DNA from: Malacoraja senta
Lineage: Eukaryota
Direction: 5' to 3'
Length of the DNA stretch: 64,000 nucleotides
Assembly (NCBI GenBank): GCA_038087875.1
Contig: CM075994.1
Location: forward strand, 3,102,001-3,166,000
Part shown: positions 2,406 through 63,055 of the stretch, in pieces
Layout: each line of letters begins with the position of its first letter
How positions within the stretch are numbered: position 1 is the first letter of the stretch
The notes under the pieces: generated by a model
What the model was told of the DNA's origin: nothing
Database searches by the model: none
What the model saw: the letters and a program-made list of their open reading frames with translations, nothing else
Program-made: the position numbers and the translations under genes

Positions 2406-2689
<284 letters not shown>

Positions 2690-4032
2690 TTCTGCCTGCC
2701 TTGTGGGTGCCAGCCTTTGATTCGTTGCTACGCCAACACCACACGCAGAAACGCCGAGAATTTTTTCCATTTCGGTAGAGATTTTACTTTCATTCCAAGT
2801 ATCCACTCCTGATTAAATTTCGTCGTGTTTATGTGCACATTTTAAATAAAATCTCCACCCCAAAATCTCAAAATGTTTTAAAAGATCAAACCACTCTCAA
2901 CGATAGAATGTTGGTGAACGTTCCATCGTGTGATGTCACAATGCCCAATGCTCACAGATGTCCAATCGGAATGGATTCATTTACATATGTCTTTCCTCCA
3001 GCCCCAGCCCCCTCCCCCGCCTGATGTCGCAGCACGTTTCATTCTTGTGATGTCACAATGCCATCCCTCACAGATGGCCAATCGCAATCCAATCCATTTA
3101 CATATGTCTTTGCTCCAGCCCCAGCCCCGCCCCGCAGCCTGTTTCGAGGCGCGTGATCACGAGTGTGGGAATAGAGTGAGAGGAGTGGGGTGATTGGGAG
3201 TGGGGAATAGATGGACTGCCCCTACCCATTCCCTCTCCACTCTTTCCCCTCTCTCCCCCCCACCCCTTTCCCACTCGCTCAACACTCTACACCCTCCCTC
3301 CCACAACCCAATCTCCCTCCTCCCCTCCCCCACCTTCCCTCTCTCTCCCCTCCCCCATCGCTCTCACCCCCCCATCTCCATCTCCCTCTCCTCAACCCTC
3401 ACCCTCCCCCCCCTCCTCCCACCCCATCCCTCTCTCCCCCACACCCCTTCCCACTCTCACCAGCCCCCTTCCCTCTCTCCCCTGCCCTCCCCCTACCCCT
3501 CTGTCCCTCTTCCACCACTCCCTCTTCCACCCTCCACCCTCCCCTCCCCCACTCTTCCACTTCTCTCACCCTTCCCCCACCACTCTCCCTCCCCACCCCC
3601 TCTCCCTCCCACACACCTCTCTCTCCCCCACCCCCCCCCTCACCCTCCCCTCTCTCTCCCCATTCCTCCCCCCCCTACCCCTCTGTCCCTGTTCCACCAC
3701 TCCCGCTACCCCTGTCCCCCTCCCACCTCACTCTTCCACTTCTCACCCCCCTTCCACACCCCTCTCCCTCCCCACCTCTCTCCCTCCTCCCTCTCCTCCC
3801 CCCAACCTCCGTCTCTCCACCCACACCCTTCCCCTACCCTCCCTCCCTCTCTCCACCACCCACCTACCCACCTCCCCGTCCCTCTCTCTCACTTCCACCA
3901 CTCCCCCCTCTCCCCGCCTGTGTGTTTGGGGTGGTTAGTGTGAGCGTGACGCCGCAGGCCCCCCCCCCCCGCAAACGCGCGTTGGGGAAACAGACCCAAC
4001 GTGTCTGCACTTGGTCTAGTACTTATTAAAAC

Positions 4033-4518
<486 letters not shown>

Positions 4519-5119
4519 ATTTCGCCTTTGATTCACATCCCTCAGAAAACCCGTCGTCGAAACGTTGACATTTCCGGTAGAGATTTACCTATTGAAATTA
4601 CATATTCCGGAGAGATTTACCTCATGATTTCAAAAATCCCATCATCTGTAAATTTGGTTCATTATTTCCCAAGTATTTTACTAAATTGTTCACAAATCTG
4701 CGTTTCTTTCAAATCTAACCACTCGCCAGCTGATGACGTCGCAATGCCTTTTTCTCGTGGCCCAACCGGCTCTTGGCCAGCCCCCCCGGCTCTGGATTAA
4801 AGCAGCTGCTGACGACGCGCAGGCGCACTGTTTTGCACTAGTTACTTCAACAACCCGCCCCCACACCCCCCCCCCCGTTCTTCAAAAGGTGGCAGAAAAA
4901 ACGAGCAGGTTCTGCAGATCCGGAGGTATCCGGAGGTCACCGGAGGCCTCCGGCGCTCACCGGCGCTCACGAGCTTTTGAAAAAACTTTCTCCTCGCGGC
5001 CTGCGCAGCGAGTGAAGTCAAGCCCCTCCCCGCCCACAGCCTCCGCTTGCAAACGTTCCTATCTTGCTCCCCGCCCCCGTTGCTACGCGCTCCGTGTTTC
5101 CAGATAGTCGTGCACTGTA

Positions 5120-5700
<581 letters not shown>

Positions 5701-15000: not shown

Positions 15001-18000
15001 TCCTCAGCCATGCATTTATCCTCCACCTCACTCCATTCCTACTCTCACCGTCGCGTGGCACAGGTCGTCATCCTGCGATTGTTACCTTTGTAGTCCTTCT
15101 CCTTAACTCTCCTCCCAACTCCCTAAATTCTCCTTTCAAGACCTCTTCTCTTTTTCTACCTATGTCATTGGTACCTATATGTACCACAACCCCAGGCTTC
15201 TCTCACTCCGATTTCAGGATATCCGACTACGTTTCAGTGTTATATTGTACTTGCTTATCGGATTCTCCATTTTGCATAAAATCCTATATCATGGCAAAAT
15301 ACCAATGGTTCTGACATATACCTGACAGCCTTCTTCTTCAATCCAGGCCCATCTAGATGATGAAATAGGCAGGGTTCTGCGTGCGCAACACTACTAACTC
15401 TGCAATGATCGGTTCGTTAGACTGAATGGGCAACTTTAATCCCGTACGTGCACTTTTGTAATTTTTTGGCAATTTTAGCGTTGATGGGAATATCTCGATA
15501 TTGTCGAGTAGTCGTTCGTCACAAGGCATAAAATTATCTGCTTTCATTTGTCACGGATGCGTGTTCTATTTCATCCCTGTATAAACTATTGTGCATGTCA
15601 ACACCACAGACCGCTTCGATTTCTCAAACAACGATCCTTGTCAATATTTTAATTTTTCTTTAGAAGTGGAAGCCGTTTTCGGGCAGCCTGGTAAGCAGTA
15701 TTCTCATTAAGCATTTACACTTATGACATATAAACCGTGCATTTGAAAGCAAGTTCAAGTAACTTTGCATAATGGTCATTGGGAATCTGGGAAATGTCAA
15801 AGGCAGCAATATTAAAATTGTTATAAATAAATAAAATAAAACTTTAAAAAGTCTCCAATGTAGATATTAGAAAATTTGCAATCGTTCTGTTTCTCAGCGC
15901 ATAGAATGATTCAATTGGACCCCACGAGTCTAAGCCGTTGTCTGGAAAAATATTAAAAATCAAATTTATCCACAACCTCTGCATATCAAGCATATCAAGT
16001 CTGACGTGTTTCTCCTGTCACCAACCTACACCAGGATCTAATTTACAACTCAAATATCTTATAAATCGCCCATCGTTCCTATGAGAGAGAAAATAGGAGC
16101 ACCCATAGATACAGATACTACAACCGCAGCACGTTGAAGCACAGAGCGGCGGAATTGACGAATAAACCGATGTTGCTCTGCGGCAGTAGCGCAAACTGCA
16201 AGGGTTCGATATGATCAACTTTGTATATTTAGTTTGACGGAATTGATGACTATCTTTCCATCTGTTCGTATCACAAATGAACACATACATCTCCATCGAT
16301 TGCTATGTATTCAGGCATACGTGAGAACAATTTCATCAACATTTCCACCGTAACGTAAATTGTTGATGCAAAAATACATTCGACAATATTTGAATGAATT
16401 GGACGAAGCTGAAAGTGGATTGACGTATTCTATTCAGATGCAGTTTCAAACTATGAACAATGTAGTTAAAACACTGGAACTAAATATAAAAATACATCGA
16501 ACAAAACATATCTTCCCTTGCAGACACGGTTTAATATAAACGCTCATACTTAGATAATATATATTGATAGATAGAAATTGTTCGTTTAAATTGGAATATT
16601 GAACTATTATAAATAATATGACTGCCAATAGTTTATGGAAGAAACCTCAACTCCATTGACCATTTCAACCATCTCTTAACATGGTGGAATCTATTTTTAT
16701 CATTCATTTTTCAACTTAATGTATTTACCGTGACACGAAATGTGGACCACATGCAAATGAGGTAACATTAATTTAGAACTGCATTTTTCAGAGAGCAAAT
16801 ATGAGGCTTAATGTGCATTTCGTAGAAAGTGCAGTAAATGATACCGTTCACACCTTGGCAAGTCATGTGTACAGGGGATGGGGATAATATAAACCAATGC
16901 ACATGCAAACCAATACAGGATCTGTATGACAGAAAAACATACGAAATACCAGAGAAATTGAAAACGCGCACACAATATCATTATATTGAGTCATTTGGGG
17001 TAGTTTTTACTGTTAGTCCATGTGTCTATTACATTACAGATATTAAACAATTGGAAAGTCTTCAAGAAGATGCAGGTCAGACTATGAATTTGTTAATTTG
17101 CAAAAATAAAAGTGTATATAATTGGGCAGAAAATGCGTGCCATTGATGGCTATTAAGAATCTGCTCCTGCGTTCATTTCTTGTGCACGATAATATCAATC
17201 TTAGATAAACTCGATTGTTGGTTGACTGTGCAAACAACGATGTGAAACATTGTTTGACATTGCTACTGTGTGGTCTCCGTTTTGTGACGGTTGAGGATTG
17301 TGAGATATCGCATTGGATGAAGCGCGGTGCTTCCTTGATACCAATGCTGGTATCGTTCACTTTTATTCACTGGAGATTAGAAGGATGAGGGGGTATCTTA
17401 TAGAAACATATGAAATTAAAAAAGGACTGAACTCGCTAGATGCAGGAAAAAATTTCCCAATGTTGTGCGAGTCCAGAACCAGGGGGGCCACAGTCTTAGA
17501 ATAAAGGGGACGCCATTTAACACTGAGGCGAGAAAAAACTTTTTCACCCAGAGAGTTGTGAATTTGTGGAATCTCGTGCCACAGACGGCAGTGGAGGCCA
17601 TGTCACTGGGAGGATTTAAGAGAGTTAGATAGAGCTCCAGGGGCTAGTGGAATCAATGGGTATGGGGAGAAGGCAGGCACGGGTTATTGATTGGGGACGA
17701 TCAGCCATGATCACAATGAATGGCGGTGCTGGCTCGAAGGGCCGAATGGCCTCCTCCTGCATCTATTTTCAATGCTTCTATGTTCGCCTTGTCGGGATTT
17801 ATGCTGTTTAGTCAAGCTTCGGCACATCACTTTGGCGATATCGTGATGCATCATAGCTTGGTAAAGTCAGTCCTCTGACCAAGTCAAGGCAAGAGTGTTT
17901 TATTTTTATATGTCCCTGATGGGACAATGGAATTCCTACTTGATTCCAGCACAACAGAATATGTGAATATGTAAACATAGTACATAACGGATGAAGAGAA

Positions 18001-19604
18001 AAATGCGAAGAATGTCAATAAATAACAAAAGTAGTGCAATAATAATAAGTATTTTGCAGTTCAGATCTCAGAGCTAATTCGTTGTTGTGCGTAATAGCCT
18101 GGTGGCTGTTGGGAAGAAGCTGTTCCTGAACTTGGACGTTACAGTTTTCAGGCTTCTCTACCTTCTTCCTGGTGGCAATGACGAAATGAGTGTGTGGCCA
18201 GGATGGTGTGGGTCTGATGATTTTGGCTGCCTTTTTGAGGCAGCGTCTACGATAAATCCCATCGACGGTGGGGAGCTCAAAGCCGGTGATGGACTGGACA
18301 GTGGTCACAACTTTTTGTAGTATTTTTCGCTCTATGACGTTCAAGTTGCCGAACCTGGCCACGATGCAACCTTTCAGAATGCTCTCTACCGTGCACCTGT
18401 AGAAGTTTAGGGGAATGCTCTTCGACATGCCGAATCTCCGTAATCTTCTCAGGAAGTAGAGTCGCTGATATGCCTTCATTATAACTGCATCGGTGTGGTG
18501 GGTCCAGGAAAGATCTTCGGAAATATGCACGCTCAGGAATTTGAAGTTATTGACCTTCTCCACCATCGTCCCATTGATGTGAACAGGATTTTCGGTCCTC
18601 TTCCTTCCCCTACCTAAGACCACAATCAGTTCCTCTGTCTTAATGATGTCGAGTTCCAGGTTTTTGTGCTGGCACCAGCCTCCCTGTTAATACTGTTGGC
18701 GCCTCTGGCCTTCGCCCTGCTGCCCTGGCACACGACAGCGAAGACGATGGCACTGACTACCACGGACTGCTGGAAAATCTGTAGCAACTTACTGCAGGCG
18801 TTTAAGGATCGGAGCCTTTTCAAAAGGTGCAGCCCGCTCGAACACTTCTTGTACACGGCCTCAGCTTTCCTGGCGCAGTCCAGTTTATTACACACACTTT
18901 CAACTGCATTTCTCTGTAGTATTAACGCAATCTTCAACTTTCGATTTCCGTTTACTGTTTGTACTACTTATTTTATAGCCATGACGTGTATGAGTACACA
19001 TGGGTGGTATCTTTTGTCTAGCAACGTTTTTCACTGCACATTGCTACACGTGAAAATAAGATGAGAGAACCAAAACCAATGTACATTAAGATAGAACGAC
19101 GACGTCTTCCATAAGTTGAAGCACACAGTAGGTGTAACAGTGCCGACCAATAAAAGGCAGACGAATACATAAACAAATAATCTACTGTGCGCGATAAATC
19201 TGTCGAAATGTATCAGTGTTATCATGGCATAATCTATGAATGATACCGTTTATATAATCACATGCAAATTGGACCTCTCTTCAGCAACATTTTGATTATG
19301 CGAAATGTATCAACGAAGCTTTCCCAAAAATGTAAAGTGCATATGGAAACTGTGTCTTATTTCTATATTTTCCCTTGCAGAAAAACAATTTAAACTCAAG
19401 AGCGAAGGTAACAATAAATAAAAAAACAGAGATAACATTAAAATTACCGATGCAGTTCGGAGTAAAGGAGGAAAGGGTTATTATGCACATTTGAAATAAT
19501 AATAATATTAATAATAATAATTATTATTATTATAATTATCATAATAACAATAATAAAGAAGCCTGTATTATGCATAATAATCAAGTTTCATAATAATAAT
19601 AATA

Positions 19605-19648
<44 letters not shown>

Positions 19649-22600
19649 GAAACTTGAATATTATGCATAATACAGGCTTTTTGCGTATTCAGTTATAACA
19701 CAAACCACAGAGAGATTGCATCTCGAAGGCAAGCTGCGAATGTTTTTCACGGAAAATAAAACGGTTAACTACGCACGCAAAACTTATGATTAAAGCACAA
19801 TTAACACGGTAGATCCAGTTTATAATAGAGCAACGGTAACATTGCTTGGTAGGGCTTTGTTCATAATCTTTACAATTAAGTAGAATGATTATTCACAGAA
19901 ATATGTTGCGCAAAATTATGTGCCGACATTTCGGTTAAACTATGAAATAGCTGTAAACCGTGGAACAAACACAAAACACGCATTTCAAAATCTAGCGTAA
20001 ATTATTTCTTCGCGAACAGTATGTGATGTTTCCACAGACTTTGGTAAATACACTGTAAACCAGAAATTTAACAATGAACTGCAAAGTTGCAAAGCTATTC
20101 CGAAGGAAAAGCGAATTATTTCTTCACTCGAATGAACAGTCACTTCTCCTTTTATGCTATTTGAATCAAGAGCGCGCGCCTCTCACTGAATCAAGAGCGG
20201 GCGCCTCTCACAGTTAACGGAGACTATAATTTCAGAGCTGGTTGGTTGCTATTTCCATCATTGGGCCGATCATCTGGTTTACAGGCCAAAAACAAAGGAT
20301 CACATGACAGTATCGCCTTCCAGATATTGCCGGTATGACTGTCAAAAATACATCACAGGAGGTTTACCAAGATGGAATTTTCTCCACCCTAATAGAAATT
20401 AAAAGACTTCGTGACCGATTTAGTAAGTTAAATCACTTTTGACATGTCTGATCGGTAGGCATGTTTGAATAATTTACATTTGTAGCTATGTACAAACAAA
20501 AACAGATTTTCAGAAAAATTTCATGCAAAAATAGGGACTGAATTGATCTATGAACACCATCAAATATGCAACGTGTCTGTATTTTCATATTCATTTAGAT
20601 ATGATGAAACCAAATCCGGCCTTAGCTCTATTCGCGTTACATTAGCTCTATTTAACTAAAAGTCTTCGTCTTGTTTGTGCCCACGACGTGTCTCTGTGTC
20701 AATCTGGTTAATTCCTATCATATTCTAACTGCTAGGCCTCGGTTTTTCCATTTACGCACATCATAGAAACATAGAAACATAGAAAATAGGAGCAGGAGGA
20801 GGCCATTCCGACATTCGAGCCAGCACCGCCATTCTTGTGATCATGGCTGATCGTCCCCAATCAATAACCCGTGCCCGCCTTCTCCCCATATCCCTTGATT
20901 CCGTTACCCCGAAGAGCTCTATCTTACTCTCTCTGCAATCCATCCAGTTATTTGGCCTCTACCGACCTCCATGGCATGGAATTCCACAAATTCACAACTC
21001 TCTGGGTGAAAAACGTTTTTCTCACCTCAGTCTTAAATGGCCTCCCTTTTATTCTAAAACTGTGGCCCGTGATTCTGGACTCGCCTAACATTGGGAACAT
21101 TTTTCCTGCATCTAGCTTGTCTAATCCTTTTATATATTTCTATAAAACTCCGCTCATCCTTCCAATCTCCAGTGAATACAAGCCTAGTCTTTTCAATCTT
21201 TCCTCATATTACAGTCCTGCCATCCCAGGCATCAATCTCGTGAACCTACGCTACATTGCCTCAATCACAAGGATGTCCTTCCTCAAATTAGGAGACCAAA
21301 ACTGTACACAATGCTCCAGATGTGGTCTTACCAGAGCCCTATACACTGCAGAAGAACCTATTTACTCCTATGCTGAAATACTCTTGTTATGAAGGCCAAT
21401 ATTCCATTCGCTTTTTTCACTGCCTGCTGTACCTGCACGCCAACTTTGATTGACTTTTGTACAAGGACATCCAGGTCTCGCTGCACGTCCCCATTAGCTA
21501 ACCTAAGCCCATTGAGATAATAATCTGCCCCCATTTATTGCCGGCAAAGTGGATAACCTCACATTTGTCTATATTATACTGCATCTTCCACGCATCAGCC
21601 CACACACTCAACCTGTCCAGGTCACCCTGCAACTTCCTAACGTCCTCTTCACAGTTCACTATGGTAAACATTTGCGGCCCCATCACCGAGCCTTGCGGCA
21701 CTCCAATCGCCACTGCCTGCCATTATGAAAATGACCCGTTCACTTCTAAAGTTTGTTTCCTGTCTGCCAACCAATTTTCTATCCATGTCAACACCCTACA
21801 CCCAATACCATGTGCGCTAATTTTACTCACCTGTCTACCGTGCAGGACCTCATCAAAGGCTTTAAGAATGTCTAGATACACTACATCTACTGGCCCCCCT
21901 TCATCCATTTTAATTATCACATCCTGAAAAGATACCAGAAGATTAGTCAAACATAATTTCCCTTTCAAAAATCAAAGTTGACTAGGACTAATCATTTTAC
22001 TGCTATCCAAATGCCCCATTATTACGTATTTAATAATTGACTCCAGCATCTTACCTACGACCGGTCAGGCTAACTGGTCTGTAATTCCCCGTTTCTCTCT
22101 TGCTCCTTTCTTGAACAGTGGGATAAAATTAACTATTCTCCAATCCACAGGAAATGATCCTGAATCTATTGAACATTGGAAAATAATCACCAATGCGTCT
22201 ACTATTTCTAGAGCCACCTACCTGAGGGCCCTGGGATGCAGACCATCCGGCCCAGGGGATTTATCATCCTTCAGTGCCATTAGCCCACCCAATACTATTT
22301 CTCGCCTAATGAAAAAATATTTCCGTTCCTCTACACCCTTAGATAATCTGTCCACCAGTACATCTGGGAGATTGTCTGTGTCTTCCTTAGTGAAGACAGA
22401 TCTGAAGTACCTGTTCAACTCTTCTGCCGTTTCCTTGTTACCCATAATAATTTCAACCGTATCTGCCCTCAAGGGACCCATATTTGATTTTGCGACTCTT
22501 TTTCCCTTAACATATCTAAAGAAGATTTTACTGTCCTTCTTTATATTCCTGGCCAGCTTCCCCTCGTACTTCTTCTTTTCAGCCCGTATTGCCCGTTTTG

Positions 22601-55600: not shown

Positions 55601-58600
55601 AAAATAAGTCAACCATATATAGTATTAGGGAAAAGGACGTCGGGAATAAAGATATTACTGAAAATAATCAGCAAACCATGAAATATCGTCGAAGAAATAA
55701 ACAGAGGTTTACGTCAATGGCCGTTAATCATAACTGGGTAAATGAAATCATTTTGTTGCTATGAAAGTGGAACCATATGACTGTGCGGGTGTGATTTTGC
55801 TGACATACTGTACTACAGAGACGGGAGCATTTATGAACTGGAATAGAATGAAAAGGACTCTTGAACTCAATGATGCAAAACGTAGCTATTGCTGGAAAGC
55901 AGAAGCAAAAAAGAAAGCTGGAAATACCTTGTAATTTTCCATTACGTCTCTCGAAATAAAACGTGGGATTTAATCTGGTAGGGGGAAAAGTAGTTTATTG
56001 TGGCAAAGTCTGGAAAACACTCTATCTGAAATTGTTGCTCCGTCTTGGGGGGCGCCGTCCTGTATGGGTATGGCAGCCCAGCCTGCAGCTGTGCGTTTTT
56101 TCACTTTTTTTTAATTTTTAGTAAGTTGAGTTTTTGTTTCTCGCAGCTCTAGTCTTTTTTATGTGGGGTGGGGGGAGAGGGGGAAACTGCTTTTCAGGGT
56201 CCCTACCTGGTCGGAGAGCCGGCATTTCTCCGGGCAGCACCTTCGACCCGTCCTCGCGGCCTACCAGCGTGCCTGGAGCGGCGTTCCCTGTCTGGACCGG
56301 CCAGAACATCGGCTTCGGCTGCGGCACAGCGCTGGAGCGCTATCGCGGTGCGGGCGATGCCTTGCCCGGGTCGCCGCGCTGGAAATCCGGTGAGCTGAGA
56401 CCGCCGATAAAAACATCGCGGAGCTGCGAGTCTGTGGAGCGGCCAGCTGCGGGCGGCGGCGCTGAACTTTACATCGGGAGTCTGGGATCTCTCGCCGAGA
56501 TCACCAGTGGTGGAGCCCCATCTAGCGCGGCCTGTCGGCTTCGGAAGCCGCGGTAAGGAAGCAGCCGTTCCAGGTATCCCAAGCCGCTGTGAGGATTCTC
56601 CCGACGCCCGAGCACCATCATCTGGCGAGAAGGGCCTGGAACATCGGGCCTCCGTAAAGGCGACTTCGGAGGCCAAAATAGGCCCGACTATGGGTGCACA
56701 TGGGGATGGGGACTGGACATTGTGCCTTCCCTCATAATGGGAACCATTGTGGGGGGATGTTTTTCATGTTTAAATTTCTTATTATTGTTATGTCTGAATT
56801 TTTTTTTAATGTGCAGCATTGGCAATAAGCATTTCACTACACCAATTGGCGTAAGGGACTAATAAGGGGCATTTGAACCTTTGAACCTTTGAATTCAATC
56901 TAAGGTGCTGATGTTTGTCTAAGTGGAATACTATGTGTATCTGTCTTGAGATTACATTCGTCTTGGTCCTAGTAACATACATATATTACATTAACGGATT
57001 ATGTAAATTCTGGACACCACTGCAAAGTGAACATATATGTTCTGCAAAGTTGTCCTCTTTCTATACAATACTTGTGACAAAGATAAACCAAAACATTAAC
57101 AAAAATCGGGGTATCTAAAAATTGTTTAAATCCTAAATGAGCACGGAGATGGGAAGTGAATCACAGAGGAAAGGAGAGTGTGGATACTTTTGCCTGGGAT
57201 ACTGAGCAACTGCTTCGCTCTATAGTTTTGTAGTTCACAGTTCACACGTTGCCACTTCGTTTACTTCGTTGCCTTCCAGTCCAGCATAAAACTTCATTTG
57301 ATTGCTTAACCCCTCCCCCCTTTCCAGCAACTGCAGTTTTAAATAATTATATTTTCTCCTTTATTCTGCTTTTTGTGTGAACGCCCCATGCCTCCAATCC
57401 TCCAGATCCTGTCTGCATGATGAACATTTCCATGACTCTATTTTAATTTCAAGATTTCAGCGCCTTCAGATGTGTTTTTTTTAAAACATTTCAACGACTA
57501 GATATTCAATTAGCCATATCCTACCATAGATGAATGCTGATGTTTGTTTAAATTTAAGTATTCGCGGAAACAGCTGCCGATGGACTTTGCACGGCAGTGC
57601 ATAGTGTGAGTATGTGTAAAAAATTTGTTTCGTGAACTGATTTGACTGGCTTAAATTTGTGTGGAGTCCTCCAGTGCCATTATGAGCTACGGACAAGAAT
57701 ATCATTTCTGCCATAGTTGGGAAAACAGAGAAAGGCACCGCGGGTGGGGAAAGGACCTGGTTCACGAGTGGGTTGATATGGTGCGAGAAGCGCGCCTCGG
57801 AAGGTATGAGGGCAGGAAAAAGAAACAGGGCATAGGGATGTATTCATCGAAGTTTGGAATATAATGTCTATACCGTTGGATTTTGTGCTATTAATGTGTA
57901 AGATGAGGTGCTGTCGTCCAGTTTGACATTACAAATACAAATCGATGTGTGAAAAAAAAAGAGTCATGTATACCAAACTAAAATAAAGCAGACTTAGTAT
58001 AGCGACAAGCGTCACAAGTATTAACTTTTCATTCTAGAAATAAAACGATTAAAAAGTTTTCAACTGGATCAAGGTCAGTCAAAAAATGAAGTGCGTCTTT
58101 ATTGAAAATCATGGATTTTTTACACTTACTATGAAAGTAAAAGAGACATTATTTGCCGAGTATGAATATTTCGAAGGATAATAATGAACATAATATAGTG
58201 TTCGTTTTTTCTCGGCCGGTATTGTGCATTGCTCTGTACATTGATGCCGTCAAAACGCTGCAGTAATGTTGCTTTCAGCACCAGTTCTGTGTAACCTTTG
58301 GTTCTGAAAATAAACCGTATGTGTCAGGAATGAGATGAACGTCCAATCGAGATGAGGACTATAATTGAAATAGCGGTGGGGGTAAGAAGGGAGTGAATAA
58401 TATTGCATTTCTTGCCAAATCAATGCAAAACAGGAATGCCCGGAGAATCGGCATACGTTGAATTTGACAAAAAATATGACGTCCCACTGATGAGAGAGAA
58501 TCAATGTTTTATTTCCAACAACACCTCTATTTTGTCATCAGCTGGACCTCGATTCTTTCAAATAAGCATCGGATATGCGAAAAAGAATACGTAGTTGGGG

Positions 58601-61600
58601 ATAATGAGGAACACAATTAATGTCTGAATAGGTGGTCTCGATCCGAAACGTCACCCGTTCCTTCTCTCCAGAGATGCTGCCTGTCCGGCGTAGTTACTCC
58701 AGCATTTTGCGCCTATCTTCGATTTAAACCAGCATCTGCTGTTCCTTCCTAAACAAAATTAATGTTGTAAATTCATGATGTTCCATCGGACCTTTTTGTC
58801 GCTCTTATGAAATGGCTTCCATATAGAGCATTAACTCAGTATTGTTCTTCTCGGATATTGGTTGTTGTGCTTGATAACTCCAGAAACTTCAAGTTTATTT
58901 CATGAAAATCTCAAGTATTTGCAGATTTTATTTTGAGCTCGCGGTGAATTAATTGGAAAATTAACCTGGAAACCAATAGTAACTGCAGGATTTTGTTTTT
59001 TTATTTGTACACTGAATTATTGAGTGTACTTCATTCAATTAAAAAACAATTATATAACACACCCGCGTTACCAATCAGCGCTGACAATCGATTTCACTAT
59101 TTTTGCGATCGTCAATATTTTCATGACATAATCAATTAGTTTTAAACTGGTCTTGGACATCAGAGAATATCAATCAAATTATCTCTTCAATGTTATTTCG
59201 CGGGGAAAAAAATCTGAATACAGAGCAAATATTTCCTTTAACCGTATGCTTCATTTTGTCAACCCTCTGAGACGCTATGTTTTCATGGTTAAAGATTTGT
59301 AGTGTTCCCAGTAGACGCAATATTTACTGCCACGTGGTGACATTGCGTGTGTAATTTTACATCAATAAGCAGAAAACCGTCACTGAGGATCAGAACGCGA
59401 ATCAATCAAGGAGTTCAAGAATGGCTCAGCAACAGTTCTGCACATAGCATGTTCTTTTAACTAGATTTATTGGATGGGAGGTAGACAAAAGTGCTGGAGA
59501 AACTCAGCGGGTGCGACGGAAATAGGCAACGTTTCGGGCAGAAACCCTTCTTCAGAATGATGTAGGTTGTGGGGGTGGGTGGCGGGAAGAAAGAAGGAAG
59601 AGGAGGAGCCAGAGGGCTGAGGGAGAGCTGAGAAGAGGAGGAGACAACAAGGGCTACCGGAAATTGGAGAAGTCAAAGTTCATGCCGCTGGGGTATAGAC
59701 TGCACAAGCGAAATATGAGGTGCTATTCCTCCCAAATCCGGTGGTGCTCACTTTGTCCATGGAGGTGGCCCAGGACAGAAAAGTCGGATTCTGAATTGGA
59801 GGGGGAGTTGAAGTGCTGAGCCGCCGGGAGGTCAGGTAGGTTATTGCGGGCCGAGCGGAGGTGTTCGGCGAAACGATCGCCAAGCCTACGCTTGGTCTCA
59901 CCGATGTAGACTAGCTGACATCTAGCTGGTTGTTACCATTCTACCATTTTAATGAAAAGCAATTGCCTTTATATTTTCATTCGTTCTCGCCTTTCGTTAG
60001 GTATAATGGAAAGTGGCCAAATGATGCAAGGTCAATTCAAATTTGATATAGTACGCACTATCTAATTTGAGGAAAACAAGCAAAACGCCATCTTCTCCTT
60101 TAACGAGGATATATGAAATGATCAAATATAAATATTATAGAATATATGTCTATGTTCATTTATACTTTGTGCATTGTAGAAGAACAAATGAGGGAAAAAG
60201 ACCGAGGTAAGAGGGGGTTGAAGACACAAATAAGATGGAAGCTGGTAGGGTTTTCATTATTCGTGTTATAAACAAAAAAATAGACTTTCTCGCCATCCAC
60301 GATTCTTGGAAGAAATTGAAAGATAGAATATTTTATTTTCGAGCTAACTCATTGGGAAGGAGTTCCTCGTTTCTCTTTGAGGTATAACTGGTCAATAATC
60401 CAAGGCAGTAATCAACGTTCTATATTGGCCTATTTCCTGATCATGTTACAACTAAAAAATATTGCATTATTCACCGATTTTGCGCCAGATTCAAAAGGCC
60501 ACAAGATAAACACAGACCATCAAAGAGTCCTTAATCAATATACGTCTATCTATATAAAACCGTTATCTTGTCGTCTTCCGGTTTGCGTTGTTTTTTAATT
60601 TGCGCAAAAGGGGTACCAGATAGCGCAAAGGTTTTTCGCCATTTTACTCGCCATTCTCCTGTGATGTAGAAGCATCAAGTTTTATTCCGATCGGGGAAAT
60701 TTTACAAAAGTTATTCGTCTGTCGTTTGCCGGATGGCGACGCCCCTTCCGGCACCCGCTGTCAATCACTGGGGGCGCGAAAGAATCTGAAGGAACGGAGT
60801 GAGCATAGAGGGGCGGGGGCTGTGTTCACGGGCGGGGGCTGTGTTCTCGGGCGTGGGCGGCGACGACCACGACGAGCCGGGGGCCACTGAGAGTAGCCGG
60901 GGCTGGGAGCTGCTAAGGGTGTCTGGAGCCGGGTCCTGGAGCAGGTGAGTGCTGTCCGAGCCGCGGCCGGGAGCGGCTGAGCCCACACCCCCCCCACCCC
61001 TCTTCCGCCAACCCCCTCCCACAACCCCCACCACCCCATAACACACACCTCACAAACACACACCACCCCCCTCATACATACACGCCCTCCCTTACCCCAC
61101 AACTCCCCTGCACCATCCCACCACCCCACACCTCCCTCCCCCACAAACACCACTCTCCCACACACCCCTCTCCTAAATAGAACTCCCCTTCCGCACACAC
61201 TTCCCCTACCACACCCCAGCGCCAACCCCCCTCCTCCACAACACACCCCTCCCCACACCCCCACCTCCACACCCACTCCGCCACACAACCCCTCCCCACA
61301 CACCTCCTCCCCCACACACCACCACCCAACACACGCCCTCCCGCACGCAATCCCCTCCCCACACACACTCCATCCCCCATACAATCCCCATCCCCCACAC
61401 CGCTCCCGCAAACCCCCTCCCATACACACCCCTCCCCCACAACACCCTCCCCACCCCCTATCCCAGGCCAACACCTCCCGCACACCCGCACCCCCCACAC
61501 GCCCCTTCAATAACAATCCCCGCACAACATACCCCCTCTCCCACACAGCCTCTCCCCCACACTTCCCACCTCCCCCACACACCCCACCCCCCCACAACCC

Positions 61601-63055
61601 GCACCATACCCACACACCGCAAACACATCCCTCCCCAAGCACCCCATCTCTCCACACCACTCCCCTCCCCACTCACCCCCTCCCCCCCTCCCAACACATC
61701 GCACCCCCCACACCCACCTCCCCACACACCGCCCCTCCCCACACAACCCCTCTACACAAACTCCCCTCTCCCCACACAACCTTCACCCACACACACCCTC
61801 CCACAGACCCCGCCCCCTCACATCGCGCTCCCCCACACAACTCTCCCTCCCCCTCCCCCAATACCCCTCCCACGCACCTCCTCCCCACCGTCCCTCCCCA
61901 ACACCCCACCCCCCTTACTCCGCCACCCCCACCTCCTCCCACGCACACCTTCCCTCCCCACTCTCCTTCCTCCCCCACACCCCCTTCCCGCACAAACTCC
62001 TCCCCTGGATGCACGACGATCCTCGCCTGAAGCCGTCCCCTTCCTCCGGCTATAGAACGCTGCCGCCGTTGCGTTCCGGGAACAGGTGCGTGGGGGAATT
62101 TTGCATTGCGAAATGGGTTGCGTTGGGGGATCAGGCCTCCCGTGTGACTGGGACCCCACGGGTCCCACTGAGTAATTTAATTCTATAACATGGACGATTG
62201 CTCTGTGTAAATTTCATGTTGTTTCAACCTTTCAGTCTGAAGGAAGTTATAGCAAAGTCTCAATCAATAATTTATTGTAACAGTTGGTTCTTTTCATGTT
62301 TCTTTTCAGAAATTAAACGATTGGAAGAACGTGTAAAGGATGCAGGTTAGACTAAAAACATGTGTACTGTTTTCGGTCACTAAGAAATCCACCAGAATGT
62401 TCGATACACGTGGGCGGGCATGCAACTCTATGTGCACGAAACACATAAACTTATATGGACTTTTATTTATTTATTTGTGCACAAAGGGCCAACATTAATA
62501 CAAACATCATACTCCTTTCATACAAACATCATGCGTCGGTCACTAGATGCGTTTACATTATGTTACATGTCGTGCCTGTTGCTTGAGACACATCGGGTTG
62601 AAGGAAACTGGGCTCGCCTTCGCTTTGCGGCTTTACGCTACTGGCATATCTGGCACACNNNNNNNNNNNNNNNNNNNNNNNNNNNNNNNNNNNNNNNNNN
62701 NNNNNNNNNNNNNNNNNNNNNNNNNNNNNNNNNNNNNNNNNNNNNNNNNNNNNNNNNNNNNNNNNNNNNNNNNNNNNNNNNNNNNNNNNNNNNNNNNNNN
62801 NNNNNNNNNNNNNNNNNNNNNNNNNNNNNNNNNNNNNNNNNNNNNNNNNNNNNNNNNNAAATGGCAAACCCAGAAATCTTTTCCAGAGGGCCTGTACATA
62901 ATCTGTGGATATGATCTCGTATTAAAGGGGAGAGAAATGCTCATCTGTCTACTGTTTTCTCATGTCATATATTTTGTTGTTTTTCTACCAATTTGAAAAC
63001 TTTGCATTGCTTTGGTTGCATTGTACAGAAGAAGAACGAATGCTGCAAAAAACAG
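6008..63055 (+). CDS. Partial multi-exon host gene: 26 micro-exons encoding a 21-aa-repeat coiled-coil-like protein (792 nt / 264 aa within window; ends not seen)
   Basis: Each exon is AG...G|GT (one G|GC), a multiple of 3 and phase 1-1. Spliced: [264 protein letters not shown]. The first residue assumes an upstream exon ending in G. Confidence 0.88.
6525..7455 (+). mobile_element. CR1 LINE 3' fragment
   Basis: KFADD...[36 protein letters not shown]; ttctat repeat tail; internal stop. Confidence 0.92.
9346..9369 (+). CDS. 24-nt micro-exon (EETETIDD)
   Basis: ttttttacag|aggaaacagaaacaatagatgatg|gtaagt. Confidence 0.8.
10001..10291 (-). mobile_element. Short non-autonomous Helitron-like element
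   Basis: Minus strand begins TCTATAATATT and ends with hairpin gtgggaccc-tac-gggtcccac. Its 5' 170 nt align by eye to 60545-60714. It is absent from the paralogous block near 8915. Confidence 0.6.
10645..10668 (+). CDS. 24-nt micro-exon (AKAETKND)
   Basis: ttttacag|cgaaagccgaaacaaagaatgacg|gtcagt. Confidence 0.78.
11752..15222 (-). mobile_element. Long CR1 LINE: ORF1 3' part (SGNH-esterase-like), ORF2 APE endonuclease plus RT, inactivated
   Basis: ORF1 end [12 protein letters not shown] motifs YFNARS, SETWL, GVYYRPP, GDFN, SDH; RT motifs [18 protein letters not shown] 16-nt duplication near 13932 causes a frameshift, there is a stop at 12194, YADD is mutated to DADD, and the tail is (ATAACCAT)n. 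Confidence 0.95.
15664..15690 (+). CDS. 27-nt micro-exon (EVEAVFGQP)
   Basis: tttttctttag|aagtggaagccgttttcgggcagcctg|gtaagc. Confidence 0.72.
17040..17075 (+). CDS. 36-nt micro-exon ([12 protein letters not shown])
   Basis: attacag|atattaaacaa...gaagatgcag|gtcaga. Confidence 0.85.
17361..17783 (+). mobile_element. CR1 LINE 3' end fragment
   Basis: [16 protein letters not shown]1-type 3' UTR; absent from the paralogous block near 33805. Confidence 0.88.
17880..18885 (-). mobile_element. Two nested Rex1/Babar (L2-like) LINE fragments
   Basis: [14 protein letters not shown]...[12 protein letters not shown] (18015-18623) interrupts an older fragment (18626-18937) that has a paralog at 34344-34845. 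Confidence 0.8.
19381..19407 (+). CDS. 27-nt micro-exon (EKQFKLKSE)
   Basis: ttttcccttgcag|aaaaacaatttaaactcaagagcgaag|gtaaca. Confidence 0.8.
19495..19679. repeat. (AAT)n/(ATT)n tract with ~45-bp inverted repeat arms
   Basis: aagcctgtattatgcataataatcaagtttcataataat at 19559 is the reverse complement (1 mismatch) of the sequence ending at 19679. Confidence 0.9.
19693..19728 (+). CDS. 36-nt micro-exon with GC donor ([12 protein letters not shown])
   Basis: ttgcgtattcag|ttataacacaaaccacagagagattgcatctcgaag|gcaagc; exact length and position expected from the 27/36 alternation. Confidence 0.6.
20762..23042 (-). mobile_element. Decayed CR1 LINE (ORF2 part)
   Basis: [30 protein letters not shown]; (CATAGAAA)n tail. 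Confidence 0.92.
23043..23945 (+). mobile_element. Unclassified repeat with recurring tgatgtcacaatg motifs, related to the interior of the 2398-5800 elements
   Basis: Motif variants near 23178, 23249, 23477, 23530 and 23813, also at 2930, 3047 and 4732; three internal ~300-nt subrepeats. Confidence 0.55.
23955..24848 (-). mobile_element. CR1 LINE 3' fragment whose tail is interrupted by a ~190-nt insert (23983-24172, possibly a solo LTR)
   Basis: [24 protein letters not shown] tail; insert contains AATAAA at 24101. Confidence 0.8.
26402..26428 (+). CDS. 27-nt micro-exon (DEETQEKEP)
   Basis: ccttgcag|acgaagagacacaagagaaagaacctg|gtaaac. Confidence 0.82.
27624..27975 (-). mobile_element. tRNA-derived SINE with CORE-like domain and L2-type (TTA)n tail
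   Basis: Minus strand: A box TGGCGCAATCGG, B box GGTTCGAATCC, gtgtccttgggcaagacactt, and aaggcgctatataaat...(tta)n. Confidence 0.8.
27983..29910 (-). mobile_element. 5'-truncated CR1 LINE, same young subfamily as 11752-15222
   Basis: Near-identical RT protein, YADD intact, frameshift near 28780; same tail and internal poly-T. Confidence 0.95.
30174..30209 (+). CDS. 36-nt micro-exon ([12 protein letters not shown])
   Basis: attacag|atattaaaagatta...gctcgag|gtcagt. Confidence 0.83.
30350..30765 (-). mobile_element. Penelope-like element fragment
   Basis: Homologous by eye to 59480-59925 (gtagacacaaaatgctggagtaactcagcggg...). Confidence 0.7.
30780..32448 (+). mobile_element. Rex1/Babar-type LINE 3' half, split by a nested CR1 (about 30905-31524)
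   Basis: [20 protein letters not shown] | [11 protein letters not shown] resumes after the CR1 tail; ATCAA flanks both sides of the CR1; (ACTTG)n tail. Confidence 0.9.
32995..33021 (+). CDS. 27-nt micro-exon (EEQVKEKET)
   Basis: ctgtag|aggaacaagtgaaagaaaaagaaacag|gtaatc. Confidence 0.85.
33485..33520 (+). CDS. 36-nt micro-exon ([12 protein letters not shown])
   Basis: attacag|acattaaacgattgg...gaagatgcag|gttaga. Confidence 0.87.
34250..34845 (-). mobile_element. Old Rex/Babar-like LINE fragment
   Basis: [19 protein letters not shown]; paralog of 18626-18937. Confidence 0.75.
35240..35548 (+). mobile_element. V-domain tRNA-derived SINE (HE1/HER1-like)
   Basis: ggcacggtggcgcagcgg A box; ggtcgatcc B box; V-domain-like ttctcccc...cggtttactcccacactccaaagac; (CTAAA)n tail. 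Confidence 0.75.
36098..36124 (+). CDS. 27-nt micro-exon (EEHLREKES)
   Basis: catcttgcag|aggagcacctgagagaaaaggaatcgg|gtaagt. Confidence 0.87.
36157..37610 (-). mobile_element. Composite non-autonomous Helitron-like element(s) with internal minisatellites
   Basis: Hairpin gacccgccgggtc at 36174; minus-strand 5' end TCTATATCATTAAAAG at 36906, second copy near 37607; ~50-nt repeat x3 at 36456-36580. Confidence 0.55.
36907..37115. repeat. 19-bp minisatellite (aggcaaggcaactttaatt) about x11
   Basis: direct reading. Confidence 0.92.
37718..38270 (+). mobile_element. L1-clade LINE extreme 3' fragment inserted into a (GAAT)n tract
   Basis: [30 protein letters not shown]...[13 protein letters not shown] resembles an L1 ORF2 C-terminus; AATAAA plus A-rich tail; atgaatgaatgatt on both flanks. 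Confidence 0.65.
38271..38398. repeat. (GAAT)n microsatellite
   Basis: direct reading. Confidence 0.95.
39779..39814 (+). CDS. 36-nt micro-exon ([12 protein letters not shown])
   Basis: cttcattccag|aaataaagcgattg...ggatacag|gtaaga. Confidence 0.88.
40208..40234 (+). CDS. 27-nt micro-exon (EVQLRKKDA)
   Basis: gtgtgcag|aagttcaactgcgaaaaaaagatgcag|gtaaaa. Confidence 0.87.
42290..42325 (+). CDS. 36-nt micro-exon ([12 protein letters not shown])
   Basis: cttttttgtcag|aaatatcccgattg...ttttcaag|gtcgga. Confidence 0.8.
42790..43380 (+). mobile_element. Decayed Penelope-like fragment
   Basis: [17 protein letters not shown] resembles the GIY-YIG C-terminus; 3' terminal repeat resembles those at 51620-51750 and 58630-58750. 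Confidence 0.6.
43611..47820 (-). mobile_element. Decayed Ty3/Gypsy LTR retrotransposon (gag-PR-RT-RH-IN); 3' LTR at about 43611-43824, 5' LTR not seen
   Basis: Zn knuckle [14 protein letters not shown]; protease [17 protein letters not shown]; RNase [21 protein letters not shown]; integrase [18 protein letters not shown] ggggaagga then TGTA...TACA; many frameshifts. Confidence 0.93.
48153..48179 (+). CDS. 27-nt micro-exon (EDQLKEKES)
   Basis: aatcaaag|aggatcaactgaaagaaaaagaatcag|gtaatc; AAG acceptor. Confidence 0.8.
49410..49445 (+). CDS. 36-nt micro-exon ([12 protein letters not shown])
   Basis: tttcattccag|aatcaagacgtctt...aaatttag|gtctgt. Confidence 0.78.
   Translation, partial: NQDVLYKPKKI
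49744..49770 (+). CDS. 27-nt micro-exon (EEQLRDKAA)
   Basis: ccccgtag|aagaacaactgagagataaagcggcag|gtaaac. Confidence 0.87.
50620..51095 (-). mobile_element. Decayed CR1 3' fragment
   Basis: [15 protein letters not shown]...VNLWNALP. Confidence 0.85.
51150..51750 (+). mobile_element. Decayed Penelope-like fragment
   Basis: Similar to the reverse complement of 59480-59800. Confidence 0.6.
51837..51872 (+). CDS. 36-nt micro-exon ([12 protein letters not shown])
   Basis: tttgtttatag|aaataaggcgattc...gaagaag|gtcagt. Confidence 0.86.
52219..52245 (+). CDS. 27-nt micro-exon (EDKLNQERA)
   Basis: tgttgcag|aagataaactgaaccaagaaagagcag|gtaaga. Confidence 0.87.
52396..53426 (+). mobile_element. Mini LTR element: 90-bp LTRs, PBS, gag-only interior
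   Basis: LTRs 52396-52485 and 53337-53426 (TG...CA, 2 mismatches); tggtgacccc directly after the 5' LTR; Gypsy gag-like [22 protein letters not shown] with [13 protein letters not shown] knuckle; frameshift in poly-C near 52702. Confidence 0.88.
53859..53894 (+). CDS. 36-nt micro-exon ([12 protein letters not shown])
   Basis: ctttgtttcag|aaaccaaacgaatgg...cgatgcag|gtcagt. Confidence 0.87.
53975..54325 (-). mobile_element. Old CR1 3' end fragment
   Basis: ggagcagaattaggccgttcg...ctgtggcaatgaatccca matches the CR1 3' ends elsewhere in the window. Confidence 0.7.
55050..55076 (+). CDS. 27-nt micro-exon (EDRLKNKDT)
   Basis: tttcttgcag|aagatagactgaaaaacaaagacacag|gtaaat. Confidence 0.88.
56045..56892 (+). 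mobile_element. GC/CpG-rich unclassified retroposon-like insertion
   Basis: Sharp GC shift against AT-rich flanks; ends in (TTTGAACC)n tail; no recognisable ORF. Confidence 0.5.
58038..58073 (+). CDS. 36-nt micro-exon ([12 protein letters not shown])
   Basis: ttttcattctag|aaataaaacgatta...ggatcaag|gtcagt. Confidence 0.88.
59478..59925 (-). mobile_element. Penelope-like element 3' fragment (GIY-YIG endonuclease)
   Basis: Minus strand reads [19 protein letters not shown] from about 59908 downward. Confidence 0.85.
60180..60206 (+). CDS. 27-nt micro-exon (EEQMREKDR)
   Basis: cattgtag|aagaacaaatgagggaaaaagaccgag|gtaaga. Confidence 0.87.
60545..62177 (+). mobile_element. Non-autonomous Helitron-like element with 1-kb C/A-rich low-complexity core
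   Basis: 5' TCTATCTATATAAAAC; terminal hairpin tgggaccc-cac-gggtccca at 62149-62167; 5' region homologous to 10120-10291 (minus). Confidence 0.6.
62310..62345 (+). CDS. 36-nt micro-exon ([12 protein letters not shown])
   Basis: tttcttttcag|aaattaaacgattgg...ggatgcag|gttaga. Confidence 0.88.
62659..62858. other. Assembly gap (200 N)
   Basis: N run. Confidence 1.
63029..63055 (+). CDS. 27-nt micro-exon (EEERMLQKT)
   Basis: ttgtacag|aagaagaacgaatgctgcaaaaaacag|gtaacg; lies after the N gap. Confidence 0.8.

What the first reader, a model, noticed from the sequence alone, without database searches (positions are those of the whole stretch)
15664..63055. Hidden gene built from strictly alternating 27-nt and 36-nt micro-exons encoding a 21-aa (three-heptad) coiled-coil repeat
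Seen: 23 short segments spread over 47 kb of transposon-filled DNA. Each is bounded by AG and G|GT (one G|GC), and they alternate 27,36,27,36 without exception (12 x 27 nt, 11 x 36 nt). All are open in the same phase-1 frame, while the phase-0 reading of many hits TAA/TGA. The 27-nt class reads about EEQLREKES and the 36-nt class about EIKRLxxxQxDA. One pair is 63 nt = 21 aa = three heptads, with L4/I11/Q18 seven apart and L14 at the d position. None of this appears as a coherent ORF in the track. Inference: an internal part of a long, charged coiled-coil protein assembled one micro-exon pair at a time. Established parallel: chicken BG and butyrophilin genes encode cytoplasmic heptads with tiny phase-1 exons (mostly 21 nt). 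I do not know of a 27/36 alternating architecture, and I cannot name the gene.
Basis: partly seen in the sequence, partly recalled or inferred. Interest (0 to 1): 0.95.

Follow-up and report, generated by a model that had tools for sequence, protein, structure and literature searches.

The report
Micro-exon array encoding a coiled-coil rod
A vertebrate gene segment is built from 23 tiny exons of two alternating kinds that together spell a 21-residue charged helical repeat, and it belongs to a small gene family that annotation and protein databases appear to miss.

Summary
On the + strand between 15664 and 63055 lie 12 class-A exons (27 nt, about EEQLREKES), 10 class-B exons (36 nt, about EIKRLxxLQxDA) and one B-type exon of 27 nt at 20396. 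I found no eleventh 36-nt exon and no G|GC donor. All alternate A/B. All 22 regular exons are AG...G|GT bounded and open only in phase 1.

Similarity stops within about 10 nt of each exon. Reverse strands and 100 simulated windows give nothing comparable.

The joined product (237 aa) is 52% charged, has 2 Pro and 1 Gly, and shows 3.5-residue hydrophobic periodicity. This fits a long, weakly zippered coiled-coil rod.

New here: the exon types recur only in clusters on two contigs. Two downstream loci are collinear duplicates whose exons are 2.2 times better conserved than their introns.

No Ig, transmembrane-type, B30.2 or other host domain was found in about 374 kb scanned, so the butyrophilin/BG link is architectural only.

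No RNA run was available, and spliced sequence could not be searched. Expression and gene identity therefore remain unshown.

The parts
15664..15690 (+). 27-nt phase-1 exon, EVEAVFGQP; first of the series, not repeat-like
   Evidence: AG/G|GTAAGC, open in phase 1; leave-one-out score -6.3
17040..17075 (+). class B exon, 36 nt, [12 protein letters not shown]
   Evidence: leave-one-out 27.4; 82% identical over 326 nt to the unit at 33485
19381..19407 (+). class A exon, 27 nt, EKQFKLKSE
   Evidence: weak by leave-one-out (2.8)
20396..20422 (+). B-type exon of 27 nt, EIKRLRDRF; last base A, donor GTAAGT
   Evidence: the one length exception
26402..26428 (+). class A exon, DEETQEKEP
30174..30209 (+). 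class B exon, [12 protein letters not shown]
32995..33021 (+). class A exon, EEQVKEKET
33485..33520 (+). class B exon, [12 protein letters not shown]
36098..36124 (+). class A exon, EEHLREKES
39779..39814 (+). class B exon, [12 protein letters not shown]
40208..40234 (+). class A exon, EVQLRKKDA
42290..42325 (+). class B exon, [12 protein letters not shown]
48153..48179 (+). class A exon, EDQLKEKES
49410..49445 (+). class B exon, [12 protein letters not shown]
   Evidence: weak by leave-one-out (2.7)
49744..49770 (+). class A exon, EEQLRDKAA
51837..51872 (+). class B exon, [12 protein letters not shown]
52219..52245 (+). class A exon, EDKLNQERA
   Evidence: weak by leave-one-out (-3.2)
53859..53894 (+). 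class B exon, [12 protein letters not shown]
55050..55076 (+). class A exon, EDRLKNKDT
58038..58073 (+). class B exon, [12 protein letters not shown]
60180..60206 (+). class A exon, EEQMREKDR
62310..62345 (+). class B exon, [12 protein letters not shown]
63029..63055 (+). class A exon, EEERMLQKT; last in the window
   Evidence: weak by leave-one-out (0.3)
9346..9369 (+). candidate 24-nt acidic phase-1 exon, EETETIDD (unproven)
   Evidence: good splice scores. Similar 24-nt acidic exons precede the A/B exons at the paralogous locus (EESGSSSE, EDIGVTDE)

Best explanation
These are real protein-coding micro-exons of one + strand gene. All are phase 1 at both ends, so every junction codon is G|AN (Glu or Asp).

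Two exon classes alternate. A 27-nt exon gives 9 residues and a 36-nt exon gives 12. One pair is 63 nt, which is 21 residues or three heptads. Spliced in order, the 23 exons give 237 residues of almost uninterrupted, very charged alpha-helix. It has a sparse hydrophobic seam (L4, I11, L14, L/V/M17) and a conserved polar Q18. The most likely form is an extended two-stranded coiled-coil rod or spacer of low stability (inferred).

The array grew by tandem duplication of exon pairs. The youngest duplication is still visible around the B exons at 17040 and 33485. Because all exons are symmetric, adding, losing or skipping a pair keeps both the reading frame and the heptad register. Rod length can therefore vary in 21-residue steps, in evolution and possibly by splicing (inferred).

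The gene belongs to a family that is confined to clusters on two contigs. Its ends, its other domains and its expression are not known.
For: Frame and splice sites. Phase 1 is open in 22 of 22 exons, other frames in 3-8 of 10-12. AG and G|GT occur in 22 of 22, class A donors are GTAA in 12 of 12, and polypyrimidine tracts are present. The peptide motif and the splice sites co-occur in 21 of 21 strong hits found without a splice requirement.

Selection. Similarity between units ends within about 10 nt of the exon in 14 of 15 unit pairs found by blastn. The exception is the young pair. Flanking columns differ at about 0.6-0.8, exon columns at about 0.4-0.45, with codon position 2 least variable. 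No exon differs in length within its class.

Paired loci at C18:3.4978-3.5273 Mb and 4.1371-4.1566 Mb are collinear duplicates including their introns. Five shared exons differ at 20 of 153 sites against 503 of 1730 aligned intron sites (Fisher p = 8e-6). The exons have no indels, and both splice sites are kept in both copies.

Not chance and not a dispersed repeat. A strict class-A DNA pattern hits the 6 window exons and nothing else in 1.94 Gb. A looser one gives 41 hits, of which 22 lie on contig C18 between 3.13 and 5.51 Mb and 4 on C5 between 15.5 and 17.6 Mb. The exons sit in single-copy islands (depth 3-30) among repeats at depth 10^3-10^6.

Helix and coil. The product is 52% charged, 22% LIVMF, with 2 Pro and 1 Gly in 237 residues. 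The strongest hydrophobic period is 3.5.
Against: No transcript evidence of any kind. No RNA run was listed for this organism, so joining of the exons is inferred.

Two protein searches with a profile that scores the window's own spliced product at 92 bits (E = 2.8e-21) found nothing. One covered 7782 candidates of 71-2000 aa and the other 118 candidates of 8-70 aa.

Only 3 to 4 of the 6 core positions per 21 residues are hydrophobic. K sits at one d position and Q at one a position, so a stable coiled coil is not assured.

Among changed codons between the paired loci, 6 are synonymous and 11 non-synonymous. That pattern alone does not show strong purifying selection.

Six of the 23 exons are weak by sequence.

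No first or last exon and no other domain was found.
Confidence: 0.7

Rival explanations
1. The array is the cytoplasmic heptad tail of an immunoglobulin-superfamily receptor of the butyrophilin/BG kind. Such a gene has signal, Ig V and transmembrane exons upstream, and for butyrophilins a B30.2 exon downstream.
For: The logic is the same as in chicken BG genes. In those, 13 to 36 exons of 21 (sometimes 24) nt each encode a heptad of a cytoplasmic coiled coil, and the genes form an expanding and contracting cluster (PMC4046983, passages read). Here too the exons are split-codon micro-exons in a clustered family. Contig C18 is rich in B30.2 exons.
Against: No V-set, Ig, PRY or SPRY hit among 524 + strand open frames of at least 62-80 aa covering -100 kb to +164 kb around the window. 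There was also none in the 80 kb of the two paralogous loci. The only + strand SPRY exon listed between 3 and 6 Mb (4,559,228) belongs to a compact 8-kb gene with a RING/B-box-like first exon and no A/B micro-exons. Exon sizes differ (27/36 against 21/24). The genome-wide V-set search scored only 150 of 1517 candidates, so it says nothing about C18.
Confidence: 0.1
2. The window array and the similar exons up to 1.15 Mb downstream on the same strand are parts of one giant gene with super-repeats, in the way of titin PEVK or the nebulin triplicated block. They would then not be separate family members. The product would exceed 2000 aa and may already be annotated under some name.
For: 18 class-A pattern hits lie on the + strand of C18 from 3,134,993 to 4,285,371, with none on the - strand in that span. 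Candidate A/B-like exons also lie upstream at -13.5, -15.9, -17.9 and -34.5 kb and downstream at +72 to +106 kb. No host domain, and so no obvious gene boundary, was found anywhere in the stretches scanned. The protein searches could not see proteins above 2000 aa.
Against: Further hits lie on the opposite strand at 4.65-5.51 Mb and on another contig (C5), so separate genes exist. Several CpG-rich islands lie within the span. A gene over 1 Mb made only of micro-exons would be without precedent that I know of. I did not read the DNA between 3.266 and 3.478 Mb or between 3.538 and 4.137 Mb.
Confidence: 0.2
3. The exons are relics. They would be a once-coding array that is no longer transcribed or spliced, or is used only sporadically as cassette exons.
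For: No transcript or protein match. One exon has changed length and end base (20396). Introns are swollen with retroelements.
Against: 22 of 22 open frames, 22 of 22 intact splice-site pairs and no length change within a class, even though intron similarity has been wholly lost. Exons are better conserved than introns in the paralogous pair.
Confidence: 0.07
4. Chance matches, or pieces of a transposable element.
For: The region is repeat-rich, and purine-rich open segments are common.
Against: Controls are. The patterns are confined to two contig regions, and the reversed-pattern control is comparable only for the scattered hits. The exons lie in single-copy DNA.
Confidence: 0.01

Closest known systems
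Chicken BG genes and the heptad exons of butyrophilins
   Same: A cytoplasmic coiled coil encoded by a run of micro-exons with split codons, one or a few heptads each. Exon number varies by duplication and loss. The genes are clustered (PMC4046983, passages read).
   Different: BG exons are 21 or 24 nt and of one kind. Here two kinds of 27 and 36 nt alternate, so the repeat unit is an exon pair of three heptads. No Ig V, transmembrane or B30.2 exon was found nearby. Introns here are 0.3 to 6 kb and full of retroelements.
Tropoelastin gene (recalled, not checked here)
   Same: Small exons, all phase 1 at both ends, with two functional classes that alternate along the gene, so that exon skipping keeps the frame.
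   Different: Elastin exons encode hydrophobic and cross-linking segments, not a charged heptad helix. There is no 63-nt periodicity.
Non-fibrillar collagen genes (recalled, not checked here)
   Same: Exons of 27, 36, 45 and 54 nt with a split first codon beginning with G.
   Different: The product here has 1 Gly in 237 residues. There is no Gly-X-Y, and the split codon is Glu or Asp.
Titin PEVK and nebulin repeat exons (recalled, not checked here)
   Same: Long series of small symmetric exons, each a repeat module, with segmental duplications that include introns.
   Different: Their modules are about 28 or 35 residues per exon. The composition differs. No Ig or Fn3 exons were found here (Pfam scans).

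Membership tests
Heptad coiled coil | Hydrophobic periodicity of 3.5 residues over a long stretch without helix breakers | tested here: met
   The strongest Fourier peak is at 3.5, for both LIVMF and LIVMFYWA. There are 2 Pro and 1 Gly in 237 aa.
Heptad coiled coil | Both a and d positions mostly apolar | tested here: inconclusive
   Per 21 residues, positions 4, 11 and 14 are apolar in 8, 7 and 9 of 9-10 units, and position 17 in 6. The expected core positions 7, 18 and 21 hold K, Q and A/T/Q.
Single alpha-helix (ER/K) domain | Excess of opposite charges at i, i+4 | tested here: not met
   29 i,i+4 pairs against 31.6 +/- 4.5 in 2000 shuffles (z = -0.6). i,i+3 and i,i+7 are enriched (z = 3.4 and 2.7).
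BG / butyrophilin genes | Ig V-like exon upstream of the heptad exons | tested here: not met
   No V-set or Ig hit among 246 + strand open frames covering -100 kb to 15.3 kb. Frames shorter than 62 aa were not scanned.
BG / butyrophilin genes | Heptad exons of 21 (24) nt | tested here: not met
   Exons are 27 and 36 nt. The BG sizes come from PMC4046983.
Butyrophilin / TRIM | B30.2 (PRY-SPRY) exon downstream | tested here: not met
   None among 278 + strand open frames from 63 kb to +164 kb (the 278 include 70 frames of locus 2). Of the 150 best SPRY matches out of 696 candidates, none lies at C18 3.0-4.5 Mb.
Transmembrane receptor | Transmembrane exon next to the array | not tested
   No search for hydrophobic exons was made.
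Collagen | Gly-X-Y triplets | tested here: not met
   1 Gly in 237 residues.
LRRFIP | Locus carries the LRRFIP domain (PF09738) | tested here: not met
   All 5 matches lie on contig C1.
Transposable element or dispersed repeat | Copies scattered over the genome at high copy number | tested here: not met
   Strict pattern: 6 hits, all in the window. Looser pattern: 26 of 41 hits fall in two contig regions. The exons lie in single-copy depth bins.

The most novel reading that the evidence does not exclude
This would be a vertebrate gene family not yet described, and perhaps restricted to one lineage. Its proteins would be built almost entirely from phase-1 micro-exons of 24, 27 and 36 nt. A three-heptad coiled-coil unit would be split over two alternating exon classes. 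Rod length would be set by duplication of exon pairs, and perhaps by pair-wise exon skipping. Ordinary gene prediction misses such genes because no exon exceeds 12 codons and introns run to kilobases of retroelements.
Probability: 0.35. Interest if true: 0.75.

Novelty: new variant of a known kind. Interest (0 to 1): 0.6.

Why it matters
If the exons are expressed, this is the longest regular array I know of in which a structural repeat is divided between two alternating micro-exon classes.

It would be a natural test case for three questions:
- How exons of 27 to 36 nt are recognised across introns of kilobases.
- How heptad register constrains exon duplication and skipping. Pairs keep the register; single exons shift it by 2 residues.
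- How many such genes are absent from vertebrate annotations because no exon is long enough to be found by homology or by open-frame length.

The family's clustered, strand-coherent spread over more than 1 Mb also raises a further question: is it many genes or one giant one?

Tried and rejected
1. RNA evidence. The look-up of sequencing runs (kind rna) listed no RNA holder, only two DNA-like runs, X1 and X2. Laying them showed genomic contigs collinear with exon plus intron and no informative joints.

3. The search of protein representatives was run with alignment A3, one 52-aa read-through row plus nine 12-aa rows. It returned 5 junk repeat proteins that match intron-coded flanks. A local test showed that this profile scores the window's own spliced product at only 22 bits. 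The search had no power, and its blank means nothing. I should have run that test before spending the single job.

4. Alignment A4 has power but found nothing. Proteins above 2000 aa were not searched.

5. The open frames with IQ motifs at about -38.5 kb looked like a possible 5' part of the gene. They turned out to be a decayed intronless piece that joins ASPM-type IQ repeats to a tousled-like-kinase coiled-coil segment. Rejected as part of this gene.

6. LRRFIP was rejected.

7. The genome-wide V-set search was uninformative, with 150 of 1517 candidates scored.

8. A link to B30.2 genes through the SPRY exon at 4,559,228 was rejected.

9. The pattern hits AGAAATAAAACGGTTG... near SPRY exons on unplaced contigs resemble class B only in the bases that the pattern forces. 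No inference was drawn.

10. Two mis-counted patterns gave no hits. They were corrected.

11. Literature. Searches for heptad + small exons + cytoplasmic tail + butyrophilin, for microexons + coiled-coil + heptad + tandem duplication + phase 1, and for '27-bp exon' + '36-bp exon' gave only the BG papers and unrelated work.

12. Earlier findings of this scan: none.

Full report
**Where the window lies.** The window is C18:3102001-3166000 (+) of a 1.94-Gb genome in 6182 contigs. It is vertebrate-type DNA with microsatellites, low-complexity tracts and many retroelements.

**The observation**

A scan for AG-(27 or 36 nt)-G|GY segments open in phase 1, followed by profile scoring, recovers an ordered + strand series.
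- Twelve 27-nt exons (class A) lie at 15664, 19381, 26402, 32995, 36098, 40208, 48153, 49744, 52219, 55050, 60180 and 63029.
- Ten 36-nt exons (class B) lie at 17040, 30174, 33485, 39779, 42290, 49410, 51837, 53859, 58038 and 62310.
- Between 19381 and 26402 the only B-type segment is 20396-20422. It reads EIKRLRDRF, is 27 nt long, ends in A and has a perfect GTAAGT donor.
- A profile scan of every + strand position without a splice requirement finds no other B copy there.
The A/B alternation holds throughout.
- Introns are 298 to 5970 nt.

**Is it more than chance?**
- *Frames.* Phase 1 is open in 12 of 12 class A and 10 of 10 class B exons. The other two frames are open in 5 and 8 of 12, and in 3 and 5 of 10.
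- *Motif and splice sites together.* In the scan without splice constraints, all 21 hits above 12.6 bits carry AG before and GGT after. None of the 8 weaker hits (9.7-12.5) has both.
- *Controls.* The clean controls were the reverse strands of the window and of 100 kb of flanks, plus 100 first-order Markov windows. They reach at most 10.3 (A) and 7.4 (B).
- *Leave-one-out.* 7 of 12 A and 9 of 10 B exceed those maxima. The six weak exons are A15664, A19381, A26402, A52219, A63029 and B49410. Four of them (A19381, A26402, B49410, A52219) sit exactly where the alternation needs an exon; A15664 and A63029 are the terminal exons of the series. A15664 is not repeat-like in sequence.
- *A caveat on the flanks.* The + strand flanks are not clean controls. 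Their best hits look like family members, for example EKERLARVQEDI at -13.5 kb and GEQTRTKDT at +72 kb.

**Evidence that the exons are under selection**
- Blastn among the 23 units with 150 nt of flank found 15 unit pairs. In 14 of them the similarity covers only the exon and about 5-10 nt around it.
- The exception is B17040/B33485, at 82% over 326 nt. This is a young duplication.
- Mean pairwise difference is about 0.4-0.45 inside exons and about 0.6-0.8 in the flanks. Codon position 2 is the least variable.
- Class A donors are GTAA in 12 of 12. Class B donors keep G at +5 in 10 of 10.
- DNA contigs of two runs cover the exons collinearly with their introns. All five single-copy variants seen in the 20 kb laid are intronic. 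With only 243 exon bases in that stretch, this is not informative.
- The same call shows that the exons lie in single-copy islands (depth 3-30) between repeats of depth 10^3-10^6.
- Retroelement open frames in the introns include LINE endonuclease/RT at 12197-14936 (-), RT at 28772-29920 (-) and an LTR-element pol at 43823-46431 (-).

**What the exons encode**
- Joined in order (in a script only), the 23 exons give 711 nt and 237 residues.
- Composition is E 21%, K 14%, L 10.5%, R 10%, Q 9% and D 8%. In all, 52% of residues are charged, the net charge is -10, and 22% are LIVMF. There are 2 Pro and 1 Gly.
- The strongest hydrophobic period is 3.5 residues.
- In the 21-residue unit, apolar residues hold positions 4, 11, 14 and 17. 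Q holds position 18 and K position 7.
- Opposite charges are enriched at i+3 and i+7 but not at i+4 (z = -0.6). This speaks for a coiled coil rather than a single ER/K helix.
- I read this as an extended, weakly zippered coiled-coil rod. Oligomer state and stability are inferred, not shown.
- Every exon starts with A after a terminal G, so each junction codon is Glu or Asp.
- Skipping one exon would shift the heptad register by 2 residues. Skipping a pair keeps it. This fits the pair being the unit of duplication.

**The family**

Genome-wide DNA patterns built from the exons gave these results.
- The strict class-A pattern hits the 6 window exons it was built on and nothing else in the genome.
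- A strict class-B pattern gives 5 hits. Four are in the window and one is at C18:3498623, reading EIKRLGRLLIDA. The reversed-pattern control gave 0 forward and 2 reverse hits.
- A looser B pattern gives 80 hits against 188 control hits. Its 8 hits on C18 are all on the + strand: 6 in the window, plus 3498623 and 4142290 (EIKRLEKLLIDG).
- A looser A pattern gives 41 hits against 36 control hits. Of these, 18 lie on the + strand of C18 from 3,134,993 to 4,285,371, and 4 on the - strand at 4.65-5.51 Mb. Another 4 lie on C5 at 15.5-17.6 Mb, and 2 on unplaced contigs.

Reading 80 kb around two of these places shows more exons of 24, 27 and 36 nt in phase 1.
- The two loci share the same exon order: EEELRxKxA, EIKRLxxLLIDx, EEKLKxKEK, EKQARxKEA, EILAxxxxLQEN.
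- They are collinear duplicates including introns, at 65-80% identity.
- Their five shared exons differ at 20 of 153 sites against 503 of 1730 aligned intron sites (p = 8e-6). The exons have no indels, and all splice sites are kept.
- Among changed codons, 6 are synonymous and 11 are not. The amino-acid sequence is therefore only loosely held.
- The window array shares no intron similarity with these loci.
- Whether the + strand series over 1.15 Mb is several genes or one giant gene cannot be told from what I could read.

**What it is not**
- I scanned 748 open frames against Pfam. They cover the + strand from -100 kb to +164 kb, 80 kb at the two paralogous loci, and both strands of the window. 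Only retroelement and Helitron-type domains appeared, plus IQ motifs at -38.5 kb.
- The IQ frames belong to a decayed, intronless piece. It joins ASPM-type IQ repeats to a tousled-like-kinase coiled-coil segment and carries in-frame stops and frameshifts. It is not part of this gene.
- There is no V-set, Ig, PRY/SPRY, myosin-tail, Fn3 or collagen signal.
- LRRFIP lies on another contig.
- Contig C18 carries many SPRY exons, but among the 150 scored of 696 candidates none lies at 3.0-4.5 Mb.
- The nearest SPRY exon on the + strand (4,559,228) ends a compact gene. Its first open frame looks like a RING plus B-box by eye; I did not run it through Pfam. There are no A/B exons in between.
- The BG/butyrophilin comparison is therefore one of architecture. 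In BG genes, 13 to 36 exons of 21 or 24 nt each give one heptad of a cytoplasmic coiled coil (PMC4046983, passages read).

**Expression and identity**
- No RNA run was listed.
- The tools do not take spliced sequence, and single exons are below their minimum length.
- My first workaround, alignment A3, had no power. I learned this only afterwards.
- Alignment A4 uses unaltered read-through translations around ten B exons. It scores the window's own product at 92 bits, E = 2.8e-21 for the database size.
- With A4, none of 7782 candidates of 71-2000 aa reached E <= 0.01, and none of 118 candidates of 8-70 aa reached E <= 10.
- So no protein of up to 2000 aa in that collection shares exact 5-residue words and repeated B motifs with this array. 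Longer proteins were not searched, and the tool itself calls such a blank weak evidence.
- Three literature searches found nothing on a 27/36 architecture. The library does not hold most subscription journals.

**Verdict**
- The sequence facts are solid, and the coding reading is well supported by intrinsic and paralogue evidence.
- The splicing of the exons into one message, the ends of the gene, its name and its function remain open.
- By kind, it is a new variant of the known theme of heptad repeats encoded by micro-exons.

Noticed in passing
L004:600-2600 (about 39.4 to 37.4 kb upstream of the window, + strand): A decayed intronless piece. ASPM-type IQ repeats run straight into a segment 73-75% identical to the coiled-coil part of tousled-like kinases. 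It has in-frame stops, frameshifts and a partial internal duplication. A CpG-rich island lies just upstream. It looks like a chimeric retro-pseudogene.
   Followed up: partly
L031:1739-9596 (C18:4,551,739-4,559,596, + strand): A compact gene of about 8 kb. Its first open frame looks like a RING plus B-box, and its last exon is PRY/SPRY. The genome holds at least 696 SPRY candidates, many of them on C18 at 9.8-10.8 Mb.
   Followed up: partly
window class A acceptors (19381, 26402, 36098, 40208, 52219, 55050): Six of 12 class A exons have TGCAG at the acceptor. From memory, a UGC just upstream of the 3' splice site marks SRRM4-dependent neural micro-exons. This was not tested here.
   Followed up: no
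window 62659-62858: A run of 200 N (an assembly gap) lies in the intron between the exons at 62310 and 63029.
   Followed up: no
window 43823-46431 (-), 12197-14936 (-), 28772-29920 (-): An LTR-retroelement pol (RT, RNase H, integrase) and two LINE-type elements lie inside the introns. Word depth in two DNA runs reaches 10^5-10^6 over such stretches.
   Followed up: yes
L018:4351-5133 (C18:3,220,351-3,221,133, + strand): Open frames with PIF1 helicase and Pif1 2B domains. This is probably a Helitron-type element.
   Followed up: no
contigs C41 and C3819: V-set exons recur at a spacing of roughly 7-8 kb in long same-strand series, that is, many small immunoglobulin-type clusters.
   Followed up: no
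window 2411-5650: Long (TG)n and (CT)n tracts and C/T-rich low-complexity repeats lie upstream of the array. A CpG-rich spot sits at 4000-5500.
   Followed up: no
unplaced contigs C406, C657, C1296, C1554, C1619, C2142, C2580, C4183, C5146: A near-identical 40-nt match to the loose class-B pattern recurs on these contigs. In 6 cases it lies about 9.4 kb upstream of a SPRY exon on the same strand. The likeness to class B is limited to the bases the pattern forces.
   Followed up: no
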